From contig NW_026250404.1 in the NCBI RefSeq assembly GCF_024521635.1, positions 2,477,051 to 2,497,050 of the forward strand: a stretch of DNA of 20,000 nt. Direction: 5' to 3'. The notes beneath the pieces are model-generated. The model had not been told where the DNA came from and searched no databases. It worked only from the letters and a program-made list of their open reading frames with translations. Both the position numbers and the translations under genes were made by a program. This DNA is from Tricharina praecox. Lineage: Eukaryota. Positions 2,647 through 20,000 of the stretch are shown in pieces (the stretch's first letter is position 1; the number at the start of each line of letters is the position of its first letter).

Positions 2647-3970
2647 ATTAAGGTGCAATCTTTCTCGTAGCTGCATATATATAGAGCCTATAAGAACGTT
2701 GCGCGTAGAGGGATACTCTACTTATCTTGGTTTCGCAATATGACGGAAACTCGGAACGCGGGAAAGCGATCAGCCCTGGTCCCGCTTTGCAGCAAGTGGC
2801 CAGGCCCTCGAGGCTTTAGTATAATAGCCCTGTGGATCTCGATTTTACCTCGAACCCCTCACAGAGTCCGCATCTCCTAGACCTCTTTCCATCCAGACCC
2901 CATGATGTCCGCTGCCCGTATCCTGCGACATCCAACGTCGTTTCATAATGGAGTCGCGATGCCCCAGCCCCACAAACCCCTGTGCCAGAAGTAGTCCTCC
3001 TTTCCATTGTCCATATTTTGTACTTCCCATGGCCGTTTTTCTCTTGCCTTGCTCCGCATGATTCCCTGGCTTTCACATCCTTTCTCCTGCGACCTCCCAG
3101 GTCGGCTCCTCTCCCGGCCACCTCATGGTGGAAACTTCTTTGCCGCCGGTAAGACACGTAGATTCATACTGATGATGTAGAGGTCCGCTTATCAAGCCTC
3201 GTGATCCCGGTGAGATTTCGCGCGAAGTTTACTACCTAGTACGTTTCACCGTGTGGTGGCCAGAGAACGGCGAAGGCGATCGGCCCGAAAGAATTGTTTC
3301 AGGTTCCTCCCGAGGCCATTGCCGGGGGTTGTGAGTCAGTCCCGAACATCGATGAGCAGGGGGTATATAAAGCCAAGGTACTCTACATACATAAGACTGC
3401 GACGAGATTATGTAGCTGCCAAATTCAGGGATTAGGATGATCGGGAATCCCCACCCTCGCCTACCCTCCTGTTTCATAAAACTTCCGAGCGAAACTCAAT
3501 TGTAGACTAGTACTCTGCAGGCGCTCGGACTATCAAAATGTTTGGGTGAAGACATTGTGGCACGAATTCATGGCACCGACGAACCGGGGGACATCTGTCA
3601 CCCGATGGAACCCAGGGAACAAAGGAGGCACGGCAGTGCGGTTGAAGCGTACACAAACATGTCCATCATTGAGTGCTGCAGTGAATGATGAGAGACCTAG
3701 AAACTAGATCGTAGTCACGGGTGAACTTCTGCAGGTGAGACTTATGTTGCACCGAAAATCACGCGAGAGGCCCTCCTCCGTAGATAATGCTGTGCACAGC
3801 GTATATTTTCTTCGGTATAGGCGTTCCAGCACCCTACAAACCCAGAGAATCTTTCCACACATTCAGCACTCTGGCTCCCATTGCATCTTTGTTGCCCCTC
3901 CCCCGTCCCCACCCCCGACCATTCCACCTTCCTCTGATCGATCCCCCACGTCCCTCGATCACTCGTGTAC

Positions 3971-4725
3971 CTAACCGATCTGGCTCTTGACAAAGCTCGC
4001 AGCCGCAGTGGCATCGCTACCGTAACCGAGATGTGCGGCCAGGATGATACTCTGTCCAGCGCAGATAAGATCACCGGTCGCGCAGAAGGTCTTCGTCTTG
4101 GACTGCAGATCGCCCCAGGAGTCCCCGTTGTTTGGGTCGCCGAAGAGTACGATCGCAACTACCTTGGCCTCAGCGGTTCCAAGTTGAGCGGCTGCCTTGC
4201 GTGTGACTTGGGCGCCCTGACTGTAGCCCGACAGGACGAGTTTGGTGTCCGGGCAGTTTGTGATGGCGGTTTGAGCGTACTGAGCCATGTTCTTTGCGCC
4301 GTCGCTGCTGCCGCCAGCCAAGAAACCGGCAACCTGGAGATTCCATCAGCAAATACAGCACGATTGAGGGGGGGTGGTAAAGAGGAGGCCTCCACTCACA
4401 TCAGCGGGGTAGTCGACGCCCTGCACAGCCGTGGTTCCGACGGCTTTATCCAACGCGGTGAAGAAAGGTGGTCCGGCGATGCTTCCGACGTTTCCTTCAT
4501 CACCTTAGCATTAGCTACTTTGCCCTCACTTGGAACTTCGCCGTTCACTAGGGTGACTTTACCAGCCTCTGTGGTTCCACGGGCATAGATGACCGTCACT
4601 GCTGCACACTTCTTGTTCTTAACATCGTTGCGTGAGCTGCTTAGCTGTCGGGCCTCCAGCTTGGTGGGAGCTGCAAGAGAGGTGGCCACGAAGGCAATGC
4701 TGACAAGGCTGACGAGGAACTTCAT
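3971..4725 (-). CDS. Secreted cutinase (CE5), paralog 2, about 206 aa. Exons 4725-4563, 4494-4400, 4333-3971
   Basis: Signal peptide, CAAVTVIYARGTTE, VQGVDYPAD, catalytic GYSQG, LFGDP, CATGDLIC (Asp) and AHLGY (His). Two GT-AG introns (4562-4495, 4399-4334) give a 621-nt in-frame CDS. Confidence 0.95.
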
Positions 4726-4844
4726 GGTGGATCAGGACGAATGGACAAGAGTTTGAAGGAATGCGAGAGTCGTGAGTGACGAATGAAAGTGTTGCGGATG
4801 CCGATGCTGATGTAGGTCTGGAAGAAAATGGGACGCAAACCACA

Positions 4845-4853
4845 CCTTTATAT
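4845..4853 (-). promoter_or_regulatory. Probable TATA box of cutinase 2
   Basis: The minus strand reads ATATAAAGG about 120 bp upstream of the ATG at 4725. Confidence 0.5.
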
Positions 4854-6925
4854 CCTCGTCCTCCATTTCCTTCTTGCCCCACATCCCGTGTGATGTCGCT
4901 CTAACTGGCAGAATACCTACTACTAGTAGATGCGATAAGAGAAGGACCACAACCTAGGTGGGCTTCCAGAGCAATTCCGAGGGCTGCTTTCAAAGTTCTT
5001 GCCAATACTGTGGAACGTATGTGGTGGGGTACATGGATACCAGGGTATCCTGCGTCTGTACTGGAAGCCGCCGGTAGGGCCACCCAACTCGAAACGTAGT
5101 CTCTTTTTTCTCGTTATAGGCGTGTGATCCAATCTGGTCCGTCGATAGGATCTCGGAGTAATCTATCGCAGAGCTGTGAATGTAACAACACAACAGTGAC
5201 TCTTGGCGCGGCAACCATTGGCACTGGTACCGGATCGTGCGACATATCGGTTGACAAGCGATGTAAGCGCTCAACCAGAAGAGGCATCTATCTCCGCCTC
5301 CGATGGCAATGGATTATTTTCACTGACTACACTCGCAAACCGAGTCTTGGGGGGTTTCGTCTCAACAGTAGGAACTTTTCAAGTCAAAAGTACACAGCAT
5401 ACGCCCTGCGACTCGGAAAACTCGCCAGCATCTACTTAGAATCGACAAGCCTTTTCAACTCTAGGAACAAACGGTTAAACTGGAAGGTAAATTTGCGTGC
5501 CGAAATAGATATGCATCCATCCTACATAACGATGCATTGCGGGGTACATAAGCGCATAACCCGTAGATTACGAGGGTATTCCGGCGCCGAGAAACCCTGC
5601 AACCACGTCTTGGTCTTGAGGGGATCTTTTTACATGTAATAGCATCTACATATGCAGTTCAGAAATCGCCGGTGGCGATGCGGGGTTCAATCACAGCCGA
5701 TGGTTATGGTGGTCCTGCTCGGTCGTTCTAATGCACTCGCGCCTAAGCCAGGGCTTCTCCGGATGACACGAGCCTATTCACTGTTCCCGCCCTGATGTAT
5801 TCCCACAAACCTTACGTGCTCTGCTGGAATCGTGATGCACGTCGCTAAGCTCGAACATCTGTTCCCCATCTCGGGAGCAAATTCATCGGCATGGAGGGCA
5901 ACCGCGGGTCAAGCTCGGCGCTGCTCTACTGAGTCGGGCCCGGCCAAAAACTCGGTAAGCCCCCCCTCGGGCCTCTCTGCGATCTGTGGCCCAGCCGCTT
6001 ATCGATCAATAGAACAGTGGTGGAGCCACGGATTGTAGCGAGGGGGATCATAGACTTTTCGGCCGCCCGAGTATGTACACGAATACGGTCTACTATTAGT
6101 GAGCATGTATCAGGTGGATTCCATACCGTGCAGACGGGACCACTTCCTCCTTCGGCGGTTCCGGGAGGGTAGCGATTCCGCACTCTACTCTAGCTCAACT
6201 ACTGAGTAGTCTCCCGCACTAATCGTAGCGCAGCCGAGGTTGACTTCTTCGAAAATACTTATGTACATCGCTTCGGAAATACCTCCTTGAGCACGGGGAA
6301 GGCCGCCTGTCTGGCTAATATTGGAGATCTTTCCTTGCTGCGCTGCAGAATTAAGGCATTGAAAACAGATCCGCCTGCGCGATCATTGAAGGAAAATTAT
6401 GGATCCCGCCGAGGGATATGTCCTACACAAGGACCCTGTAATAAACAGATAAATTTCTATGTATCTGAAAGTTCATATGGTATCCAGATCGTTGTGTTTA
6501 GCGGTTAAACGTTCTGAGATGCAATTAATGTAAGCCGCGGTTCGCGTAACTGGGCGTGCGCCTCATGCTACGTGCACTGGCTTCACTGTTTCTCACTCAG
6601 ATGAGATTATGGGCAATCAAGCGGGTCTGTGTCGCAATGTAACGCGTCACGGTGCCGTCGTTATTAATTGTACGTTCGTTGGCAAACGAAACCGCCGCAT
6701 CAACTCACATGTGACATCAGCTGCCATCACTCAGTCACGTTCGATATGAACCATGAAAATTTGCAAACCGACGTTGGACGAAGAACGGTAAAACGGCCCA
6801 CGAGAAGGCTGATAATCCCAACTGTTAGAATATCCAGTGTTCTATATAGTCCGAACGGACTGGACAGGATCATTCGGGTCCGGTCTGTTCCTTATGGGGG
6901 ACGGGATAAAATTGGTCCGTGCCGT

Positions 6926-10096: not shown

Positions 10097-11158
10097 CTAA
10101 TCCCGACCGCGCATATCTCCACTACCCTTCCTGCTCAAACGGACCTTAACCCAAAGCCCATAGTGATCGCTTGCCCATTCGGTCGTGTCATCGTCATCGC
10201 CACCGTCATCGTCGTCACTCTTACTCCCGTCGCTGACCTCGCCCGTCGGCTCCTCGAACCTTAAGCCCACGCCGATACGCCTCAAGAGCCGCCCTTCCTC
10301 CACCTCATCGAACGCAAAATCTCCACGGAACAGGACCTTATCCAATCTTCCTGGTGAAAACCTACAGGGCGGCTGATACCCCCAAGTATAGCCCTCCGTC
10401 TCCTCAGTCCCCTTCTGTAATTCCCACACATCTCCCAAGCCACAGCTTTTCGGGAAATCGTCGTCCTCTGGACAAATCGCGTTCATATCGCCCGCGATTA
10501 CACCTGCCCGAATGTCTCCCTCTTTCATCATCTCTGCCGCCATGGCAAGCTGCACGGGGCGAAACCTAACCCCTGGATGCGGTAGCGACTCCAGATGCGT
10601 ATTCCCCACTCTCAGGATACTGGGGTCGCCCTGCAGAGCTACGTCAAGGAACAGCACATCTCTTCCCATCTGCGTGCGCTCATAAGGCACTCTCCTCACC
10701 GCGATGACGGGTACATCGCGCGTCGCCAGAGAAACGGTAAAGTACCGTACCGATTCCGGACTTTCCAGGTGCGAAATCTGGAAGTTTTCCCTGATCCACT
10801 CGTTCCGAAACAGCACCACATGGGACTCCCAATCCACCTCCTGGAAAAGAACGATTGTATGCGACGGCGGCGAAGGCAAGGTGAAGGAGATATGGCCCAG
10901 GATCGCTTCCATCCGAGCGCCCGAGTGGTACGCGAAGGTATCGATGTTCCATGTGATTATCGAGATCGGTGTAGATGGGAGAAGTGATGGCGCTGTGGGC
11001 GTGGAGATCTGTCGCCACGAAGCGTCTCCGGTAGCGTCTTGTACAGGTGCCGCGAAGATGCATGGCATAGTGGGGGTGACCTCAATAGAAGGCGGTGTCG
11101 GCTCCCGAGGGGGAGTCTTCGACGTGAGAGGAGGCGCGGTGGATAAAGGAACGCTCAT
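10097..11158 (-). CDS. Endonuclease/exonuclease/phosphatase (EEP) family protein, TDP2-like, 353 aa
   Basis: EEP motifs appear in order: ITWNID, LFQEV, NTHLES, AGDMN, RLDKVL, SDHYGL. Single uninterrupted ORF. Confidence 0.9.
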   Translation of the reverse strand: MSVPLSTAPPLTSKTPPREPTPPSIEVTPTMPCIFAAPVQDATGDASWRQISTPTAPSLLPSTPISIITWNIDTFAYHSGARMEAILGHISFTLPSPPSHTIVLFQEVDWESHVVLFRNEWIRENFQISHLESPESVRYFTVSLATRDVPVIAVRRVPYERTQMGRDVLFLDVALQGDPSILRVGNTHLESLPHPGVRFRPVQLAMAAEMMKEGDIRAGVIAGDMNAICPEDDDFPKSCGLGDVWELQKGTEETEGYTWGYQPPCRFSPGRLDKVLFRGDFAFDEVEEGRLLRRIGVGLRFEEPTGEVSDGSKSDDDDGGDDDDTTEWASDHYGLWVKVRLSRKGSGDMRGRD

Positions 11159-11495
11159 TGTTTCGGTGTGGCGAGCAAAGATTGGTCGTGATGTGCAGCG
11201 TTGGTGATGATTTTGATGTCAAAGCGGGACAATACCTGATCGTCAAAAATATTTCACTGTAACGTGGGGGGAGTGGCGGACACAGGGGGTAGGTAGTCCG
11301 AATTTGGTTACTATGTAGCAAATATCCGCCATTCAGCCGGCTGAAGAAGGCTGGCTTGTGGTGCGGGCATAGGTGGCGCGGCGGCGGCGGCGAGGGATCT
11401 CATACTCGGCCGCACAGTCGCCTCACCATACCATTTGACATCAGCCCGACATCATAACCTATACACAAGTTGCCTCCACCCACCTGTCTCTCTAA

Positions 11496-11520
11496 CCCCC
11501 CCCCCCCCCCCCCCCCCCCC
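11496..11520 (+). repeat. C homopolymer, 25 nt
   Basis: Counted directly. Lies between the 3' end of the transcription factor gene and the start of the EEP gene. Confidence 0.9.
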
Positions 11521-11615
11521 GTGCCGTAGCTCGACTCCGTGGAAAAAATCAAAGGGATCTGATGGTATTACATAAAATTAACAGTCCAACGCCATGAATG
11601 CAAGAAACCCGTATC

Positions 11616-14073
11616 CTACATGCCCTGTGGCGGGATCGGAAACGATGGCCACTGCTGTTGCCCGACCAAACCTGCCGCCTGCAACCCGCGCTTCGACTCC
11701 AGCTTAGCTTCAACATGTCCTAACAATCTTCCCAACTGTGTGTCGACCCGCTGTGCTGCCAGGTCAACACTGCCAACGACATTTAACCACTCCAATGGCC
11801 GACGTGCCTCTTCGACTAGCTGTTGGCAAAAGTCGAGATCGTTGTTCCGCACGATCTCATGCAAGAGTACAGCTTCAGCGCACACTAGATAATGCAAGAG
11901 ACACCACCAGGGTAGTACACCGGCCGTCTTGTTGTCGGTGTGGTGGAGGATAAGAGACAGCATCGCGCGAGCGGCAGCTACACATTCGGCAGCGTCTCGT
12001 TTGGAATACCGCCGAGACATACTGTTGAAGTAAACAAGAATCATCGAATTGTAGTAGCGGAGTGCAAGGTCCGCTCTCTGGACAGCCTGTTAGAGAGCTA
12101 CTGAAAGGGCGAATAGATGAAGAGCACCAACCTGTGTAATTAGGCCCTGATCCTCACAGGGTGTTGAGAAGTTCAGGATCGGTGGCAATTCCCACTTCCA
12201 ATGGTCGAGTCTCCGGCGCAGAACACGGATAGCCTCCTTCAATGCCCTCTTTCCTTTATTCTCCACAGTCCCGAAGGCCGTTGTCGAGTATATTTGACTC
12301 TGCACGACCGTTATTATCACGGATAGTTTTATCAGAGCGCTGTAGTAGGCGTCCGGAGAGCTATCCGCGATCGATGCGGAGCGGGGAATCTGGCTCAGAT
12401 CCACCTCTTGTAGAACCGTCGGACGTCCGGTCACGAGAGACAAGGTTGCCTCGAGGTATTCCACCGAATACCACACGCGCACTCGCATCTGCCGCTGATG
12501 CTCGTCGAGTTTCGAATCCAACATGCGGAGGTGTAGGCCTAACCCAAGTGCTAGCCTGATGGCAAGTCCTACGGCATTCCACGCGCTGGTGCGTACTCTT
12601 CTCAGTGACCGCCGTATACGTAATCGAACTACCAGAATGGGATTACACCAACCGATTCGTTTGCTTGCTACCAAGGAGATATATCCCGGCGAGGCCCAAC
12701 GCCTGTACGTCCTTTAGCACGGCAATTTCGAATAACGTGCCGCCGTCCAATGCCCCAAGGACCCGAGCTCTGTTGAAGCATTCGAGATGGGAACAGCCCA
12801 TGTCTATTCCAACACTCTCGCCCGAGCGCGAGCCAGAGGCGAAAACGAGGTTGATGATCATCAACCAGTGGTTGGCGATCCTGGTGGGACCGCTAGCATG
12901 GAGTGCTTCGTACGCTGCCTCGAATTCCGGTTTCGAGATGATGGGAACTAATGGGTGGACAGTGTCAAAGTACCGCCTAACGAGCTCGTCGGCGATGTTT
13001 TTGGGAGGGATATGATAGGTGTCGATCTGATATTTATCCCCGCTTAGAGATAGATCGATATCGTCGAGGTGATAGGTAGCTCCTGGCCGGAATCCATCCG
13101 TAAGTACTTCCCTCGGATACGCACTGGATACAGACCTCCAGAGAACGAACCAACCATGTCCAGCCCGGCATCGGTCAAACTACCGGGATCACCTTTCCTC
13201 GCGCAAATCTCACGAAGCGCCTCATCCTCCGCAGCCTCGTCCAGCTCGAGTGCTTGTCGTAGCGACCTTAGCCACGAGACCTCCGATCCGCGACCCATGT
13301 ACCCAGTCGGCTTGTTGACGGAGAGCGTGTTGATATCGTCGGCAAGAGTGTCATTGGAGCCAATGGAGCCCTCATCGTCCGACATGGAGAGATCGCTGCC
13401 GTCGTCGCTTGGGAAATCCGTGGGTTCCGATGGCGGCACAAGTGTAAACGGCCCCTTCCTACACGTATCAGCTACAACACCACACCAGCACATCACAAGG
13501 GCTTCACGGATGATTACCGCTGCGAGCGCATTCTGCACTGCGAGTTTTTCCGGTCCGTCGAGAGTGCTTTCGAGCTCCCGCAGAAGGTTCTCGTAAATCT
13601 GAACCTGCGCTTCCAATTCCCGCGTCCTTCTGTTGCCAATATGTTAAAGAGTGCTTCGATTTGTGATGAGGATCGACCTGCTGCAGACTTTCTCGCCGAT
13701 TCCCGCTTTCCATCGGCATATCGGCAGATTATGAGAAACCTAGTGCAATTCCCGCAAGTCGGCCTGGGGATCGCGAGGAGCAAGGTCAGTTGAACAGGCA
13801 TCGCAGTGGTTTCAGCCAGCGTCGTATGGGAGAGAAAGGAACCTTTCGCCGTCGCACTATGGGAGAGTTAGAATTGTCAGCAAGCTCGATCGCCGCCATG
13901 AGGCTTGAGCAACATGCCCTCGTCTTCCGTCGCCGACACGATTCGCAAGCGTGATTTATTCTCGAACGATCCTTTGGCATGTTTCTGGCGGAGGGTGGAA
14001 GACGTTCGATCTGTCGGGGGGGAGTGGAAGTTGACATTTGCTGCAGATAACGATCAGGATAAAGTGGGTACAT
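11616..14073 (-). CDS. Zn(II)2Cys6 fungal transcription factor with a fungal-specific TF (middle homology) domain, about 668 aa. Exons 14073-13918, 13856-13843, 13763-13689, 13629-13518, 13454-13151, 13082-12653, 12585-12132, 12077-11616; start codon uncertain
   Basis: The spliced product gives CESCRRRKTRCDGERPTCGNCTRFLIIC, then GYMGRGSEVSWL, YFDTVHPLVPII, QTNRAWNAVGLAIRLALGLGLHL, RVRVWYS, SLVTGRP and LPWWCLLHYL. Exon phases sum to 2007 nt in frame. Confidence 0.88.
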
Positions 14074-14234
14074 CTAGAATACAGGCCGGCCTACCGTATT
14101 TGAACTCGCACGCGGGGGGCGAAATAGGGTACGACGTGGGGCAGGGATATGACGTCAACCGAGAAAATCATCGAACCGGGAACAGGTGTCGTAGGTGCTC
14201 TACGTACGTGTGGAATCAGAGTCCCGGGAACCAC

Positions 14235-14307
14235 CCCTCTCGCCACTTGAGGCCGATATGCTAAGCGAGTAACCCTCTCGCCACTTGATGCAGTTATTCT
14301 AAGCGAG
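14235..14307. repeat. 38-bp tandem duplication in the transcription factor's upstream region
   Basis: CCCTCTCGCCACTTGA...CTAAGCGAG starts at 14235 and at 14273. Confidence 0.85.
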
Positions 14308-15210
14308 CGTGTGGGGAATCGGCGGTGAAACGCGGCGGGTTTGCGGATCACAGAAAGCTTGATATGGCGGTGGAAGGAGGGCACATGGCAGTCGTAGCAC
14401 GTTACCGGACACTCATGTTTCGAGCGTGTCCGATAGAACTTGAAAAATACACATCGTTGCATACAGTGTTAGTACCCAACGAAATGCTCGCTCCTCCAGA
14501 CACAGGTTGGAACGAGTCGGTCGAATACGACTGCCAGCCATCAGTGGGAGATCTGCGGCACGAGACGTGCGGTATTTAGAGCATGCACCTACGAGGTCAA
14601 AGGTAATCTCGCGTCCTGTCCACCATAATTCAACCAGACCACGAACTTCTCAGAGGCGAAATGACTACGGGCCCGGTTGGTTTTCGAAGTGCTGCGAAAT
14701 CGAACTGATGACCTGTCGAAGGTATTTGGGCGCTCGGTCGATCGCAATCTACGGTCCACGAGAACTGAAAGACACTTGCATACGGCGACATGCAACGGAT
14801 AGTGTTGATGGGCGTCTTGAAGGGTTCAGCATCCGTCATCTCCTTGACGCCCGAGAGAAACAAGATGGCAATCAGACACCCACCCTCTTCTGTACTCCCT
14901 AGGACCGGAAGTATTGGTACTGTATATCCGGCGAAGTTGGAGCACTTCGAGTTGCGGAATGATGGCCTTCACGCGGGGCCGGTTCCACTAGCCTTTGATG
15001 TGCTCTGGTCGATGGCTACTCAATCTTGTACGGACGCGGCGGAGCCATCATTACCATTGAAATCGCTTCGGATTATTGGTCTTTTGTCTCTCTCATCGCA
15101 CCATGGAAACCACGGCTTCAGAGTGTACTAGACAGCAAACTGTATGACACAGTCCGCCGGGTGATGAGGCGAGCGAACAGCACGTCCAAGAACTAGCAGT
15201 TGGGAGGAAC

Positions 15211-15438
15211 AGCGATTTCAGTCACCCCCAGCCCAAGATCACCGTCAAAGAGCGGTCCCACAGAGAACTTTTTATGGCGTGAAACATTCCCGTGAGTGCG
15301 GAGACAGATGGTATTGGAATGCGGTAAACAAACGATGAGAAGTCGCTGAGCGGCGCCCCCCAGTACCACCAAAATAGCGATTTCAATCCCCCCCTAGCCT
15401 AGGAGCACCATCAAACAGTGGTCCCATAGAGAACTTTG
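15211..15438. repeat. Degenerate direct repeat, about 62-bp cores spaced about 166 bp apart
   Basis: AGCGATTTCA..CCCC.AGCC...GA.CACC.TCAAA.AG.GGTCCCA.AGAGAACTTT at about 15211 and about 15377. Confidence 0.75.
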
Positions 15439-16157
15439 TAAGACAAAAAAGATTCTACTATGCATGGGAATGAATGGGGTTGCGGTTACGTGTCAATCGG
15501 TTGCAAACTCGCGGAGCGGCAGCGGGTCCGACGCAATTTACCGGTCGGCCGTAGTCGATCTGGTGAATCTACAGCCTAGCAGGACGAAACACTGCTGTAT
15601 CGCAGTCAGTATTCTCCTGTTTCTCTCCACCTGACACTCGTTGGGACCCTCAAAGTATGCTCATTACACTCGGCGTACCAATCTCTGGGTCAGACGTAGT
15701 TTACTGGTCGGCCGAAGGTGATCTGATTGCTCTACACAAGCGTGACAGTTCAAGATGCGTGGTGTACAGCGTGATGTTTCATGATGTAGAATGTATTGTG
15801 TGATATTTCATGAAGGAGTATATCACACGATATATTAGTGAACGAGGAGACTTGCGATATGTGGAGCAACAACCGCCATGGTACATAGTTAGAATGCTGA
15901 ATAAAAGGACGGTAAATCAATCCGTCAGTTGAAATAAAACGTAAATGGGGATTACAAGTACATTTTAACTGTTAGCATATTCACGGCCTGATTAGATGCA
16001 GAGCGCAAACATGCAGCCCAGACCTTATTGGGATCTAATCAGCAAGGGTACCCCGAGCTGACATTTTACTGCGCTGCACTGATAGGTAATGCAGATTACC
16101 AACCAGTACCGCTATCGCCGTACCGCCAAGCGCCTGACGAGTACTATATGAGATTAG

Positions 16158-17207
16158 TGTAACGGCACGGTCGGGCAAGGCTCCAGGCAGCGAAGCCAGG
16201 CTAGGGATCGGGCTCTGGGTTTGGCAGGGGCAAGGCGGGTTCAGGGGACAAGGTGAGGCAGGGCTCAGTGCAGACGGCAACTGAGAACAGTGTCACGGCT
16301 CACAACGGAACGTTTGAGGAAGAATCGGAATAGGGGTCGGAAGGCTGTGCAGGCGGCAATGCAGGAATGAGTCGGAGGAATTGGGGCTGTGTGTTGGAGA
16401 CAGGGGTAGCGCGGCAGCGCAGGCTGTGAGTCACTGGAGCGGGGTATCGGCGAGGAGGATTTCTCAGGGTCTGGCACACGCCCACGGTCATTGTCAGGTT
16501 GCGGGAAGAGGTGGAGGATTTCCTATATAAACGGGCCAGCGCCCCTCTGTAATTAGTTCTTCATGCAACAACTTGTTAATTCAATCACTGTTACCTCTGT
16601 CCTTGCCTCGGCTGCCGTCTGCACCGTAGTCCTTGTCCCTGCCTCTGTTCTCAGTTGCCGTCTGCACTGAGCCCTGCCTCACCTTGTCCCCTGAACCCGT
16701 CTTGCCTCTACCGAACCCAGAACCCGATCCCCAGCCCGGCTTCGCTACCTGGAGCCTTGCCCGACCGTGCCGTTACAAACAGAGGCAGGGACAAGGACTG
16801 CGGCGCAGACGGCAGCCGAGGCAAGGACAGAGGTAACAGTGGTTGAATTAACAAGTTGTTGCGTGAAGAACTAAATACAGAGGGGCAACAGCCCGTTTAT
16901 ATAGGAAATCCTCCACTTCTTCCCGCAACCTGACAATGACCGTGGGCGTGTGCCAGACCCTGAGAAATCCACCTTGCCAGTACCCCACTTCCGTGACTCA
17001 TACCCTGCGCAGCCGCACTACCCCTGCTTCCTGCATACAGTCCCAATCTCCTGCGACTGATTACTGCGCTTTCCTGCTCCCTGCACACAGCCCCCAATCC
17101 TCTGCGGCTCATCCTTGCACTGCCGGTGCACTGCCTCTGCACTGCCCCCCAACTCTCCCGATCCTTGTGCCGACCCTCCCTTCGTCATTCCGTCGCGAAC
17201 CGTGACA
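16158..17207 (-). mobile_element. LTR family A, outer copy (about 558 bp after removing the nested copy), abutting the pol fragment
   Basis: The minus strand reads TGTCACGG (17207) to GCCGTTACA (16158). Closely similar to the copy at 17670-18228 and interrupted by 16291-16777. The flanks ATTAG and ATGAA do not match, so there is no TSD. Confidence 0.9.
16291..16777 (+). mobile_element. Solo LTR, family A short variant (487 bp), nested in inverted orientation inside the outer A LTR
   Basis: TGTCACGG...GCCGTTACA ends with a perfect 5-bp TSD AACAG at 16286-16290 and 16778-16782. Confidence 0.93.
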
Positions 17208-17607
17208 ATGAAGGAGGGATATAGGAAATGTTCGGTGCTTCTGAATGGTGTCCGGGATGTCCAATTCGTAGGCGAGGGTTCCGATTGTCCAAATCAGACG
17301 GTAGGGACCATGATGTTTGTTTTCCAGCTTGCGACTGGGTCTCTCGGTGCGCCAGTTCCGACCATCCACCCATACCATGTCGCCTGGTTGGAAGGCTGGC
17401 GCAGGGGTTTGGTGCCCGTCGGAGTCGCCCTGTTGCTGTGCCTGGGCATACCGCATTTGGCTGCGGGCGACGTCGTGGATTTGATGCAACCGTTCCGCTG
17501 CACTCTGAGCTTGATGTTCCTCCTTGGTGTCGACAGGGATATCCAGCTCAAAGTCACACCGTGGGTGGTATTCTAGGTTAGCGAAGAATGGGGACAGGGT
17601 AGCCGTG
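17208..17607 (-). pseudogene. Ty3/gypsy integrase, C-terminal fragment
   Basis: TATLSPFFANLEYHPR...FQPGDMVWV...SRKLENKHHGPYRL...AYELDIP...HRTFPISLLH (GPY/F region). Continues 18863-19870 in frame once the insertion is removed. Confidence 0.92.
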
Positions 17608-18862
17608 TGTGACACCCCGATAGGTATCGGAGGTCACGACGGTCGCAACAGATGTGATTAGATAGTCCGTGTCACGGCTCACGACGGAATGACGAAGGGA
17701 GGGTCGGCACAAGGATCGGGAGAATTGGGGGGCAGTGCAGAGGCAGTGCACCGGCAGTGCAAGGATGAGTCGCAGAGGATTTGGGGCTGTGTGCAGGGAG
17801 CAGGGATAGCGCAGTAATGAGTCGCAGGATATTGGGGCTGTGTGCAGGAAGCAGGGGTAGTGCGGCTGCGCAGGGTGTGAGTCACGGAAGTGGGGTACTG
17901 GCAAGGTGGATTTCTCAGGGTCTGGCACACGCCCACGGTCATTGTCAGGTTGCAGGAAGAAGTGGAGGATTTTCTTTATAAACGGGCCGTTGCCCCTCTG
18001 TATTTAGTTCTTCACGCAACAACTTGTTAATTCAACCACTGTTACCTCTGTCCTTGCCTCGGCTGCCGTCTGCGCCGTAGTCCTTGTCCCTGCCTCTGTT
18101 CTCAGTTGCCGTCTGCACTGAGCCCTGCCTCACCTTGTCTCCTGTACCCGTCTTGCCCCTACCGAACCCAGAACCCGATCCCCAGCCCGACTTCGCTACC
18201 TGGAGCCTTGCCCGACCGTGCCGTTACAGTTCGGGTGATTAGAATAGAGTTGCGAGCCGAAAGGATAGTTAGAAGCGATCGAGGACAAGACAGGAAGGAG
18301 GGAGCAAACGGATTCCAGAGTCTAGACAGTGATCGGAGATGCGGGAGATCGGGATAACAGTCCAGAGGACTTTGAGATCTCCGTTCATAGGGCCCCGCAG
18401 TAGGAACTCCGATCCAGGGAAAAACTGTTATGACGAGAGAATCGAACATCGACCGATGGTGGCAGACAACTTCGAGCGAAGAACTCTGCCGGCGCATGAG
18501 GGAGATAATTGCTCGGAAAACTCCGATCTATCTTGGGCGCGTGGTGTTTACCACCTGCCTAGTCGGGAAGACTATCCGAAGAGAGCTGACGACGACTCAA
18601 GGCTAGGCCGCGGAACTCCGATGCAAAGGAAGCAACGCAGCTACGTTAGGCCGCACTCCAGAGAAATCACGTGCTGAGGATCGGAACGGCTATAAGTCGA
18701 ACCGAGCGGGCAACCGAACCAAACTACAATCATCGCACCGAACAAACCATCGAAGAAACACGCTTGAGATTATTCCGTTGTGAATTATCGAAATCCCTGA
18801 CTTTTATTCTACACTCGATACTACCATAGACTCCGACGACGCAATCTCGTTCCAGTCTCACA
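17608..18862 (+). mobile_element. Solo LTR of a second family, B (about 691 bp net), inserted into the integrase gene
   Basis: TGTGA...TCACA ends with a perfect TSD CCGTG at 17603-17607 and 18863-18867. No visible similarity to LTR A. Orientation is inferred only from a TATAAG at about 18691. Confidence 0.85.
17670..18228 (+). mobile_element. Solo LTR, family A (559 bp), nested in LTR B
   Basis: TGTCACGG...GCCGTTACA ends; TSD GTCCG (17665-17669) versus GTTCG (18229-18233), one mismatch. Confidence 0.92.
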
Positions 18863-19870
18863 CCGTGTCGGAGACCTGGTTGTTGCCAGCGAATTCGGCC
18901 AAGAACAGGTAGTCGACCCAGTCATCCTGGAGGTAGCTGACGTACGCGCGGAGGAGCTGTTCCATGACGGCGTTCATCCGTTCGGTTTGGCCGTTGGTCT
19001 GGGGGTGGAAGGCAGTCGACAGGCGTGGCTCGATCTTGAGGCATGAGCATAGGTGTTTCCAGAATCTCGAGGCAAACTGGGGACCCCTATCCGAGACGAT
19101 GGTTTCTGGCAACCCGTGGTACCTGAAGAACCGGTCGCAGAACAGCTCGGCTAGTCCTTCCGAGGTGATGGTCGTGGTACATGGTAGGAGATGGCGTTGC
19201 TTGGTCAGTCGGTCAACAAAAACACAGATGGTGTCAAACCCCTTTGAGGCCGGTAAGCCAGTGACAAAGTCGACTGAGATGTGTTGCCATGGCTTCTCGG
19301 GTACTGGGAGGGGGCGCAGGACACCAGAGGGTGCGTGCCGGGTGGCCTTGGTTCGTCGGCAGGTGTGGCAGTTTCGGACAAACTGGTCAACGTCCTTTCG
19401 CATCTGTGGCCAGTAGTACCTCCAAGCAAGTAGATCCAGGGTTTTCACGCGCCCTGGGTGCCCCATGGTCGGTGGATTGTGGTGGTCCTGGATCAGTCGT
19501 AGTCGGAGTCGGTCGTACTCTGGAACATAGAGGCAGTCTCGGTAGATCAGTTGCCCGTTGACTTCGCGGCATTCGGCCAAGGAGATCTCCTTCAAGTGGC
19601 GTGTACCATTTCGGAGTAGCTCGAGGATTCGATTTGGGACGGGGTCTATGTCGTAGCCTTCTGTTATCAGTGACGTGAGGAGGGGACGGTCTTGTTCGGG
19701 TGTGTTGGTTGCTGCCAACCGGAGCTCTTCCGGTAGGTTGTCCGGTTTCAGGACTGCCTGCTGGTTGGCAAGCAGTCTTTCATCCCCTTCTTTAGGCAGG
19801 TCTCCTGACCTCCTGGTCAGTGCATCCGGTTTTCCTCCCGCTTTGCCTGGTCGGTAGACAATCTTGAAAT
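18863..19870 (-). pseudogene. Ty3/gypsy pol fragment: RNase H C-terminus plus integrase zinc finger and catalytic core, cut at its 5' end by the telomere
   Basis: FKIVYRPGKAGGKPDALTRR (end of RNase H), HHNPPTMGHPG...YYWP...CHTC (HHCC), and ISVDFV...SDRGPQF...GQTERMN (DDE). No stop codons. Confidence 0.95.
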
Positions 19871-20000
19871 GGGTTAGGGTTAGGGTTAGGGTTAGGGTTA
19901 GGGTTAGGGTTAGGGTTAGGGTTAGGGTTAGGGTTAGGGTTAGGGTTAGGGTTAGGGTTAGGGTTAGGGTTAGGGTTAGGGTTAGGGTTAGGGTTAGGGT
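19871..20000 (+). repeat. Telomeric repeat (TTAGGG)n, 21 or more units, running to the end of the window
   Basis: Perfect TTAGGG array with the G-rich strand running 5'->3' toward the end. Confidence 0.98.

What the first reader, a model, noticed from the sequence alone, without database searches (positions are those of the whole stretch)
19718..20000. Telomere added directly into a Ty3/gypsy pol reading frame (de novo chromosome healing)
Seen: perfect TTAGGG repeats begin immediately after ...CTTGAAAT. On the minus strand this is the middle of a codon just before FKIVYRPGKAGGKPDALTRR, in frame with the integrase. There are no degenerate telomere repeats or subtelomeric spacer, and gag, protease, RT and the 5' LTR are absent. 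Known: telomerase can heal breaks using little or no seed homology. Inference: the chromosome broke inside the retrotransposon and was capped there, losing the original subtelomere.
Basis: partly seen in the sequence, partly recalled or inferred. Interest (0 to 1): 0.72.

Follow-up and report, generated by a model that had tools for sequence, protein, structure and literature searches.

The report
Telomeres capping broken retrotransposon stacks
This fungal chromosome ends where a telomere was added straight onto a broken retrotransposon, an ordinary repair event on its own, but every assembled telomere in this genome sits on a retrotransposon broken at a different point, which suggests the chromosome tips are continually filled with these elements and trimmed back.

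Summary
Observation confirmed. The window is the last 20 kb of contig C17. A 130-nt GGGTTA tract joins a Ty3/gypsy pol fragment between RNase H and integrase. All 29 other fetched copies continue GGA…, so the seed is 2 nt (GG).

The event is not isolated. The assembly holds 12 telomere tracts, none interstitial, and all 12 abut LTR-retrotransposon sequence at 12 different points, in three families and both orientations (7:5). Overlaps are 0-3 nt (mean 1.75, against 0.65 for random phase). These families make up roughly 2-3% of the genome. A TERT gene is present.

The original subtelomere is not wholly lost: a minisatellite block (15208-16157, 98% identical to the C94 end) lies inside the 3.7-kb nested LTR stack, and related blocks occur at 7 of 10 scorable ends.

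Best reading: chromodomain-bearing elements pile into subtelomeric chromatin, and terminal loss plus telomerase healing trims the stack. Single junctions of this kind are known (Neurospora Pogo, truncated MoTeRs); the 12-of-12 architecture was not found in print. No read spanning the junction was available.

The parts
19871..20000 (+). Telomere tract (GGGTTA)n, 130 nt, reaching the contig end
19871..19872 (+). 2-nt GG shared between native element sequence and the telomere repeat (seed; the break lies at 19870-19872)
   Evidence: 29 of 29 other fetched copies read GG then A
18864..19872 (-). Truncated pol of Ty3/gypsy family A (positions about 3946-4954 of an intact copy): end of RNase H region, integrase zinc finger and core; 98.1% to the nearest fetched copy, no gaps
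17608..18862 (+). Solo LTR of family B nested in the A integrase, 5-bp target duplication CCGTG
   Evidence: (joint 17603-18864 in X1, X2, X3, X14)
17670..18228 (+). Solo LTR of family A nested inside the B LTR (flanks GTCCG / GTTCG)
17208..17607 (-). Continuation of the same A pol (about 4942-5350; Tf2-like SH3 region); its chromodomain and 3' remainder are missing
16778..17207 (-). First part of a family A LTR joined directly to pol position 5350; no target duplication across the whole LTR, so probably a recombinant of two LTRs
   Evidence: recombination is inference
16291..16777 (+). A-like (A2) solo LTR nested in that LTR, target duplication AACAG
16158..16290 (-). Remainder of the interrupted A LTR; proximal border of the terminal stack. 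The C94 end shows the site without this LTR
15208..16157 (+). Subtelomeric block with degenerate 163-166-bp repeats; 98% identical to the C94 end, 70-83% to patches at other ends

Best explanation
The junction is a real chromosome end healed by telomerase, and it is one instance of a genome-wide end architecture: genes, a subtelomeric minisatellite block, a stack of nested Ty3/gypsy elements (0.06-23 kb), then TTAGGG. Shown: all 12 assembled telomeres join LTR-element sequence at different points with 0-3 nt of overlap; terminal elements carry nested insertions with target duplications; the A and B integrases end in a chromodomain; TERT is present. Inferred: chromodomain integrases steer insertions into subtelomeric (and centromere-like) heterochromatin, which lengthens the stack; LTR-LTR recombination and terminal loss (breakage, or telomere failure and resection) shorten it; telomerase pairs 1-3 nt of the new 3' end with its template and re-caps it. 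Because the tip is always element DNA, each healing lands in a retrotransposon.
For: 12 tracts, all at contig 3' ends, none interstitial (214 30-mers, 238 18-mers = 214 + 2x12). Junctions (contig: family, orientation, position): C17 A rev 3946; C29 A rev 3297; C33 A rev 2141; C94 A rev about 2265; C14 A-LTR rev; C72 A-like LTR fwd; C6 B fwd 4467; C38 B fwd 4413; C39 B rev 3478; C8 C rev RT; C28 C fwd gag region; C99 C fwd RNase H. Overlap mean 1.75 nt against 0.65 for random phase (P 3e-4), compatible with best-pairing at a random break (1.44, P 0.20). M. oryzae de novo telomeres use 1-4-nt seeds in 19 of 24 events (PMC7367193, passage). Families A, B and C make up about 2.4% of the assembly by a rough count. 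Terminal fragments are 95.9-99.2% to their nearest fetched copy at 10 ends, while the youngest intact A copies are 99.3-99.7% alike, which fits residence before truncation. Chromo domain in A pol 45.2 bits (cut-off 25.1), in B pol 24.1 bits; the MAGGY chromodomain binds H3K9me and redirects Tf1 insertion (as cited in PMC4600332, passage). TERT RNA-binding domain over the cut-off, with RT motifs in open exons.
Against: No read or contig spanning any junction was seen (contigs only). All 12 tracts lie at contig 3' ends and none at a 5' start (two-sided P 5e-4 if orientation were random), so the set is shaped by the assembly and about half the ends may be unseen. The same families also form large internal clusters (for example C10 194-256 kb, C23 173-221 kb, C28 1130-1190 kb), so they are not telomere-specific. 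The subtelomeric block was not found at C8, C33 or C39. Overlaps were read by eye against the commonest fetched copies; C29 and C94 are ambiguous, and fetched copies are redundant. One strain only, so neither rate nor timing is measured; chromatin state is not tested.
Confidence: 0.7

Rival explanations
1. One episode, not a steady state: a single telomere crisis (for example a telomerase lapse in this lineage or in culture) eroded all ends into pre-existing subtelomeric LTR stacks, and all were healed at about the same time. The usual telomere-adjacent sequence of the species is then absent from this strain only.
For: No degenerate repeat at the inner border of 11 of 12 tracts, as expected if all are young. 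Catastrophic multi-telomere change is described in M. oryzae, with 9 of 14 telomeres altered (PMC8381367, passage).
Against: C14 has an imperfect inner repeat, only 56 bp of LTR left, and a 91% match to its nearest copy, which suggests an older end. Stack lengths span 56 bp to 23 kb. TERT looks intact over the part seen.
Confidence: 0.13
2. Capture during repair: a broken end copied part of an internal element (break-induced replication) or captured element cDNA, and telomerase then capped the copy.
For: Capture of internal sequence at failed ends is documented in M. oryzae (PMC7367193, PMC8381367, passages). C17 and C94 share a 950-bp block at 98%, so ends do exchange sequence. C29 and C33 fragments are 99.2% to an internal copy.
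Against: The window's terminal element holds nested solo LTRs with target duplications, so it was resident through later insertions. Its best match is 98.1% with no gaps, not about 100%. At C33 and C39 the terminal element begins with an intact LTR end inside another element, as integrase insertion leaves it. Caveat: only 40 of 68 candidate copies were scored.
Confidence: 0.1
3. Assembly artefact: telomere reads were joined to repeat copies, or this arm was joined to another chromosome's tip through the repeat.
For: All 12 tracts at 3' contig ends; junctions lie in multicopy DNA; no spanning read seen.
Against: Twelve different sharp junctions with only 0-3 nt of overlap give an assembler nothing to join on. 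Tract lengths are uniform, 122-159 nt. The overlap excess over chance is a telomerase signature. A mis-join through the repeat would move the tip to another arm but leave the element-telomere junction real.
Confidence: 0.05

Closest known systems
Neurospora crassa Tel VR Pogo relic and AT-rich chromosome ends (PMC2596135; passages and section 13 read)
   Same: TTAGGG repeats directly adjacent to a transposon relic with LTRs; about 2 kb of repeat-derived DNA between the telomere and the first gene.
   Different: Neurospora ends are RIP-degraded and the paper reports no repeat class shared among them. Here the elements are 96-99% alike and legible at 12 of 12 ends, substitutions show no strong C>T/G>A excess at most ends, and a shared subtelomeric block exists.
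Truncated MoTeRs and de novo telomeres of Magnaporthe (Pyricularia) oryzae (PMC7367193, PMC8381367, PMC1635262; passages read)
   Same: Telomeres added to truncated retroelements with 1-7-nt in-frame seeds; frequent terminal truncation; minisatellite-rich subtelomeres (HARs) and truncated or solo-LTR elements near ends.
   Different: MoTeRs are non-LTR elements that insert into the telomere repeats and leave interstitial tracts that drive breakage. Here the elements are LTR chromoviruses, there is no interstitial tract of 3 or more units, and orientation is mixed. In strain 70-15, 11 of 14 ends carry the TLH subtelomere next to the telomere, not LTR fragments.
Schizosaccharomyces japonicus LTR retrotransposons and MAGGY-type chromoviruses (PMC4600332; abstract and passages)
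   Same: Ty3/gypsy elements clustered at centromeres and telomeres; chromodomain integrases proposed to target H3K9-methylated chromatin.
   Different: The passages seen describe no telomere junctions within truncated elements; Tj1 targets Pol III genes.
Telomere-specialised retroelements: FoTeR (PMC12857005, search listing only), Zymoseptoria subtelomeric Penelope-like family (PMC4522978, passages), Drosophila HeT-A/TART and Bombyx TRAS/SART (recalled)
   Same: Retroelement DNA forms the telomere-adjacent sequence at many ends.
   Different: Those are non-LTR or Penelope-like, confined to ends and uniformly oriented. These are LTR elements, also internal, oriented 7:5, and capped by ordinary telomerase repeats.

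Membership tests
Ty3/gypsy chromovirus (family A, the capped element) | pol order RT, RNase H, integrase, downstream of a gag | tested here: met
   Intact copy C17:3623-9815: RVT_1 472-632, RNase H 699-830, integrase 951-1120; gag ORF hits Retrotrans_gag
Ty3/gypsy chromovirus (family A, the capped element) | Direct LTRs with TG...CA ends and 5-bp target duplication | tested here: met
   560-bp LTRs 99.3% alike; duplications AACAG (A2 LTR), GTCCG/GTTCG (A LTR) and CCGTG (B LTR) in the window
Ty3/gypsy chromovirus (family A, the capped element) | Chromodomain at the integrase C-terminus | tested here: met
   PF00385 45.2 bits (cut-off 25.1) in A; 24.1 bits, just under the cut-off, in B
Ty3/gypsy chromovirus (family A, the capped element) | Placement in the chromovirus clade on an RT tree | not tested
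   No tree built
De novo telomere addition (chromosome healing) | Abrupt junction inside non-telomeric DNA with little or no seed | tested here: met
   2-nt GG in the window; 0-3 nt at 12 of 12 ends
De novo telomere addition (chromosome healing) | G-rich strand runs towards the end and nothing follows the repeats | tested here: inconclusive
   True of the contig; no raw or long reads available
De novo telomere addition (chromosome healing) | Telomerase encoded by the host | tested here: met
   PF12009 over the cut-off at C17:1003233-1003728; RT motifs in open exons. Telomerase RNA not sought
De novo telomere addition (chromosome healing) | Progenitor end known to extend further | not testable with these tools
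   Other copies show what the element had; the ancestral chromosome end is not available
Telomere-targeted retroelements (MoTeR, FoTeR, TRAS/SART, HeT-A) | Non-LTR element inserting into telomere repeats and leaving interstitial tracts | tested here: not met
   LTR elements; no tract of 3 or more units besides the 12 terminal ones; no 9-10-nt telomere-like match in 28 end-proximal loci scanned
Telomere-targeted retroelements (MoTeR, FoTeR, TRAS/SART, HeT-A) | Uniform orientation relative to the end | tested here: not met
   7 reverse, 5 forward
Telomere-targeted retroelements (MoTeR, FoTeR, TRAS/SART, HeT-A) | Confined to chromosome ends | tested here: not met
   Large internal clusters on C10, C23, C28, C39, C61

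The most novel reading that the evidence does not exclude
In this Pyronemataceae-like fungus the telomere-adjacent DNA is a self-renewing buffer: active chromoviruses keep inserting distal to a subtelomeric minisatellite boundary, ends break or erode often, and telomerase re-caps within the stack. Loss is absorbed by element DNA, so genes a few kb from the tip are spared, and no chromosome keeps an ancestral telomere junction. LTR elements and telomerase would share end maintenance without any telomere-specialised element.
Probability: 0.2. Interest if true: 0.75.

Novelty: new variant of a known kind. Interest (0 to 1): 0.5.

Why it matters
One healed break is ordinary. Twelve of twelve junctions inside young multicopy elements are useful because the lost native bases can be read from sister copies, giving a natural set of de novo telomere seeds, and because element age bounds how recently every end was re-founded. 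It makes a standing question testable with population long reads: are fungal chromosome tips in steady turnover, and do heterochromatin-targeting retrotransposons buffer terminal loss or cause it? It also hints at what RIP-erased ends such as Neurospora's may have looked like.

Tried and rejected
Public runs: 4 of 14 listed runs were laid on 12000-19885, all contigs. In X1, X2 and X3 contigs leave the window at 19872 into native element sequence, as multicopy DNA must. X14 barely covers the unique flank and was not interpreted; small-share runs were not used. Telomere-targeted insertion: rejected (no interstitial tracts, mixed orientation). Long cryptic seeds: the longest in-phase telomere match on either strand of A, B and the 3.5-kb part of C tested is 6-7 nt and the window junction does not use one; C29 (TTCGGGTT) and C94 (GAGGGTT 12 nt downstream) may be near-seeds. 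Addition always starting at GGGTTA at a random break: rejected on overlap (P 2e-4). Start register: 8 of 12 tracts begin GGG or AGGG, in line with the N. crassa template (PMC3592445, passage), but weak and post hoc (P 0.03 against random phase, 0.11 against best-pairing). End-to-end fusion at the internal C28 cluster: no inverted subtelomeric block on its far side. Weak subtelomere-block hits were discarded because one query overlapped a small LTR element; only searches are counted. Earlier findings of this scan: none. Literature searches showed no report of all ends capping truncated LTR elements; the library lacks most subscription papers, and supplementary tables of PMC7367193 (S2, S4) were not opened.

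Full report
Setting. The window is the last 20 kb of contig C17 (2,497,050 bp) of a 38.4-Mb assembly in 104 contigs. The best named homologues of a nearby TDP2-like gene are from Wilcoxina, Sphaerosporella and Pyronema (42-49% identity), so the host is probably a Pyronemataceae-like pezizomycete (inference from one gene).

The junction. A perfect GGGTTA tract spans 19871-20000. Upstream, the minus strand carries an open frame with integrase zinc-finger and core domains. A search of the genome with 19400-19870 gave 41 matches (40 of 68 candidates scored). Of 30 loci fetched, the 29 other copies all continue GG then A. The break therefore lies at 19870-19872 with a 2-nt GG overlap, just after the RNase H domain.

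The terminal 3.7 kb. Against intact natural copies of two families (A, 6193 bp, LTRs 99.3% alike; B, 7375 bp, LTRs 99.0% alike), the tip resolves into one reversed A element (positions about 3946-5350). It is split by a B solo LTR (target duplication CCGTG), which holds an A solo LTR. It is joined at 5350 to an A LTR with no target duplication, which is itself split by an A-like solo LTR (duplication AACAG). That is about five insertions and several LTR-LTR collapses in 3.7 kb (inference). The capped copy was already interrupted; it is 98.1% to its nearest fetched relative with no gaps.

The subtelomere. 15208-16157 holds degenerate 163-166-bp repeats. It is 98% identical to the C94 end, which lacks the LTR at 16158 and runs on about 475 bp. 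With this block as query, related patches lie just inside the LTR stack at 7 of 10 ends with enough flank: C17, C94, C72, C28, C29, and weakly C14 and C38; not C8, C33 or C39. Similar patches lie near contig ends without an assembled telomere (C83, C46, C47, C51, C40, C39 start) and before one internal cluster on C28. In soil run X1 the unique flank 12325-15208 is covered with no differences, and a further contig joins 15208-15875 to other upstream DNA, as the two-ended sharing predicts (the upstream letters were not shown).

The census. The assembly has 12 telomere tracts, 122-159 nt long, each at a contig's last base; the counts of 30-mers (214) and 18-mers (238) leave no room for another tract of three units. 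All 12 abut LTR-retrotransposon sequence: six family A (C17, C29, C33, C94 in pol; C14 and C72 in an A or A-like LTR), three family B (C6, C38, C39 in pol) and three of a third family C (C8, C28, C99). No two share a position; 7 are reversed and 5 forward. Stacks measure 56 bp to 22.9 kb at the 10 ends where the inner border was seen. A rough count puts these families at about 2.4% of the assembly (196 and 136 LTR motifs, 68 and 64 internal candidates); collapsed repeats and uncounted families would raise this, but even at 25% twelve of twelve has probability 6e-8. The proper reading is that the tips are made of these elements.

Telomerase signature. Overlaps read against the commonest fetched copies are 2, 2, 1, 2, 2, 2, 3, 2, 1, 3, 0, 1 nt (C6, C8, C14, C17, C28, C29, C33, C38, C39, C72, C94, C99); C29 and C94 are ambiguous. 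The mean of 1.75 exceeds a random-break, random-phase null (0.65; P 3e-4) and fits a model in which the end takes its best-pairing phase (1.44; P 0.20). M. oryzae reports 1-4-nt seeds in 19 of 24 de novo events and 1-7-nt seeds at 17 of 23 truncated MoTeRs (PMC7367193, passages). A TERT gene with RNA-binding domain and RT motifs is present.

Mechanism. A and B integrases end in a chromodomain (B just under the cut-off). The MAGGY chromodomain binds H3K9me2/3 and redirects insertion (as cited in PMC4600332). The copies listed here fall in clusters at contig ends and in internal blocks of up to about 60 kb and more, which fits heterochromatin targeting; centromeric identity of the internal blocks was not tested. 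I infer insertion-driven growth, loss by recombination and terminal truncation, and telomerase healing with minimal seed. The cause of terminal loss is not shown; the inverted LTR pairs in the window (297 nt at 96%, 729 nt apart) are candidate fragile sites, though the break is 1.8 kb distal to them.

Against. No spanning read was available. All tracts are at 3' contig ends (P 5e-4); some long-read assemblers drop the first read of a contig (recalled), which would hide about half the ends without regard to their sequence, but this is not verified. One strain cannot separate steady turnover from a single crisis. Capture from internal copies is not excluded for C29 and C33 (99.2% to an internal copy).

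Comparison and verdict. Single cases are known: a Pogo relic directly adjacent to Neurospora Tel VR (PMC2596135), truncated MoTeRs (PMC7367193), frequent terminal truncation in Pyricularia (PMC8381367, PMC1635262; passages), and repeat-filled subtelomeres in Zymoseptoria (PMC4522978, passages). The elements here fail the tests for telomere-targeted retroelements. Seven searches found no report of every end capping a truncated LTR element; coverage is limited to open-licence papers and supplements were not read. Verdict: observation confirmed, interpretation partly supported, new variant of a known kind, interest 0.5.

Noticed in passing
G000:C14:869060-869170 (L052:9161-9270); also L136, L138, L141, L062, L134: A small element with 108-bp TG...CA terminal repeats, often paired about 298 bp apart (TRIM-like, about 400 bp), sits in the same LTR clusters; the C14 copy is a solo repeat with a 5-bp duplication.
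   Followed up: partly
G000:C28:1128221-1190353: An internal 60-kb LTR cluster is preceded by the subtelomere-type repeat block in end orientation, with none on its far side: possibly an internalised former chromosome end, a centromere, or a mis-join.
   Followed up: partly
G000, all 12 telomere tracts: Every tract lies at a contig's 3' end and none at a 5' start, which points to an assembler asymmetry and to missing ends.
   Followed up: partly
G000:C14:869599-869811 (L052:9700-9912): The only end with an imperfect inner repeat (TTATGGG) keeps just 56 bp of a 91%-identical LTR: probably the oldest junction and an almost eroded stack.
   Followed up: partly
window 15208-16157; L058:1-2100; L122:7300-9300; L121:3500-5800: The subtelomeric domain is a patchwork of degenerate minisatellites (about 165, 163, 61/45, 17 and 10 bp); the 165-bp period is close to nucleosome length.
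   Followed up: no
window 10097-13867 (-): A TDP2-like endonuclease/exonuclease/phosphatase gene and a fungal transcription factor gene lie only about 6-10 kb from the telomere; a cutinase gene lies at about 3970-4730 (-).
   Followed up: no
G000:C39:1673932-1688408: A second nested LTR stack lies 28 kb inside the 5-kb terminal stack of C39, separated from it by DNA that matches none of the element families tested.
   Followed up: no
L032:4212-9403 (C17:3623-9815): Family A has overlapping gag and pol frames, and several intact copies are 99.3-99.7% alike with no strong RIP-type bias, which suggests current activity.
   Followed up: partly
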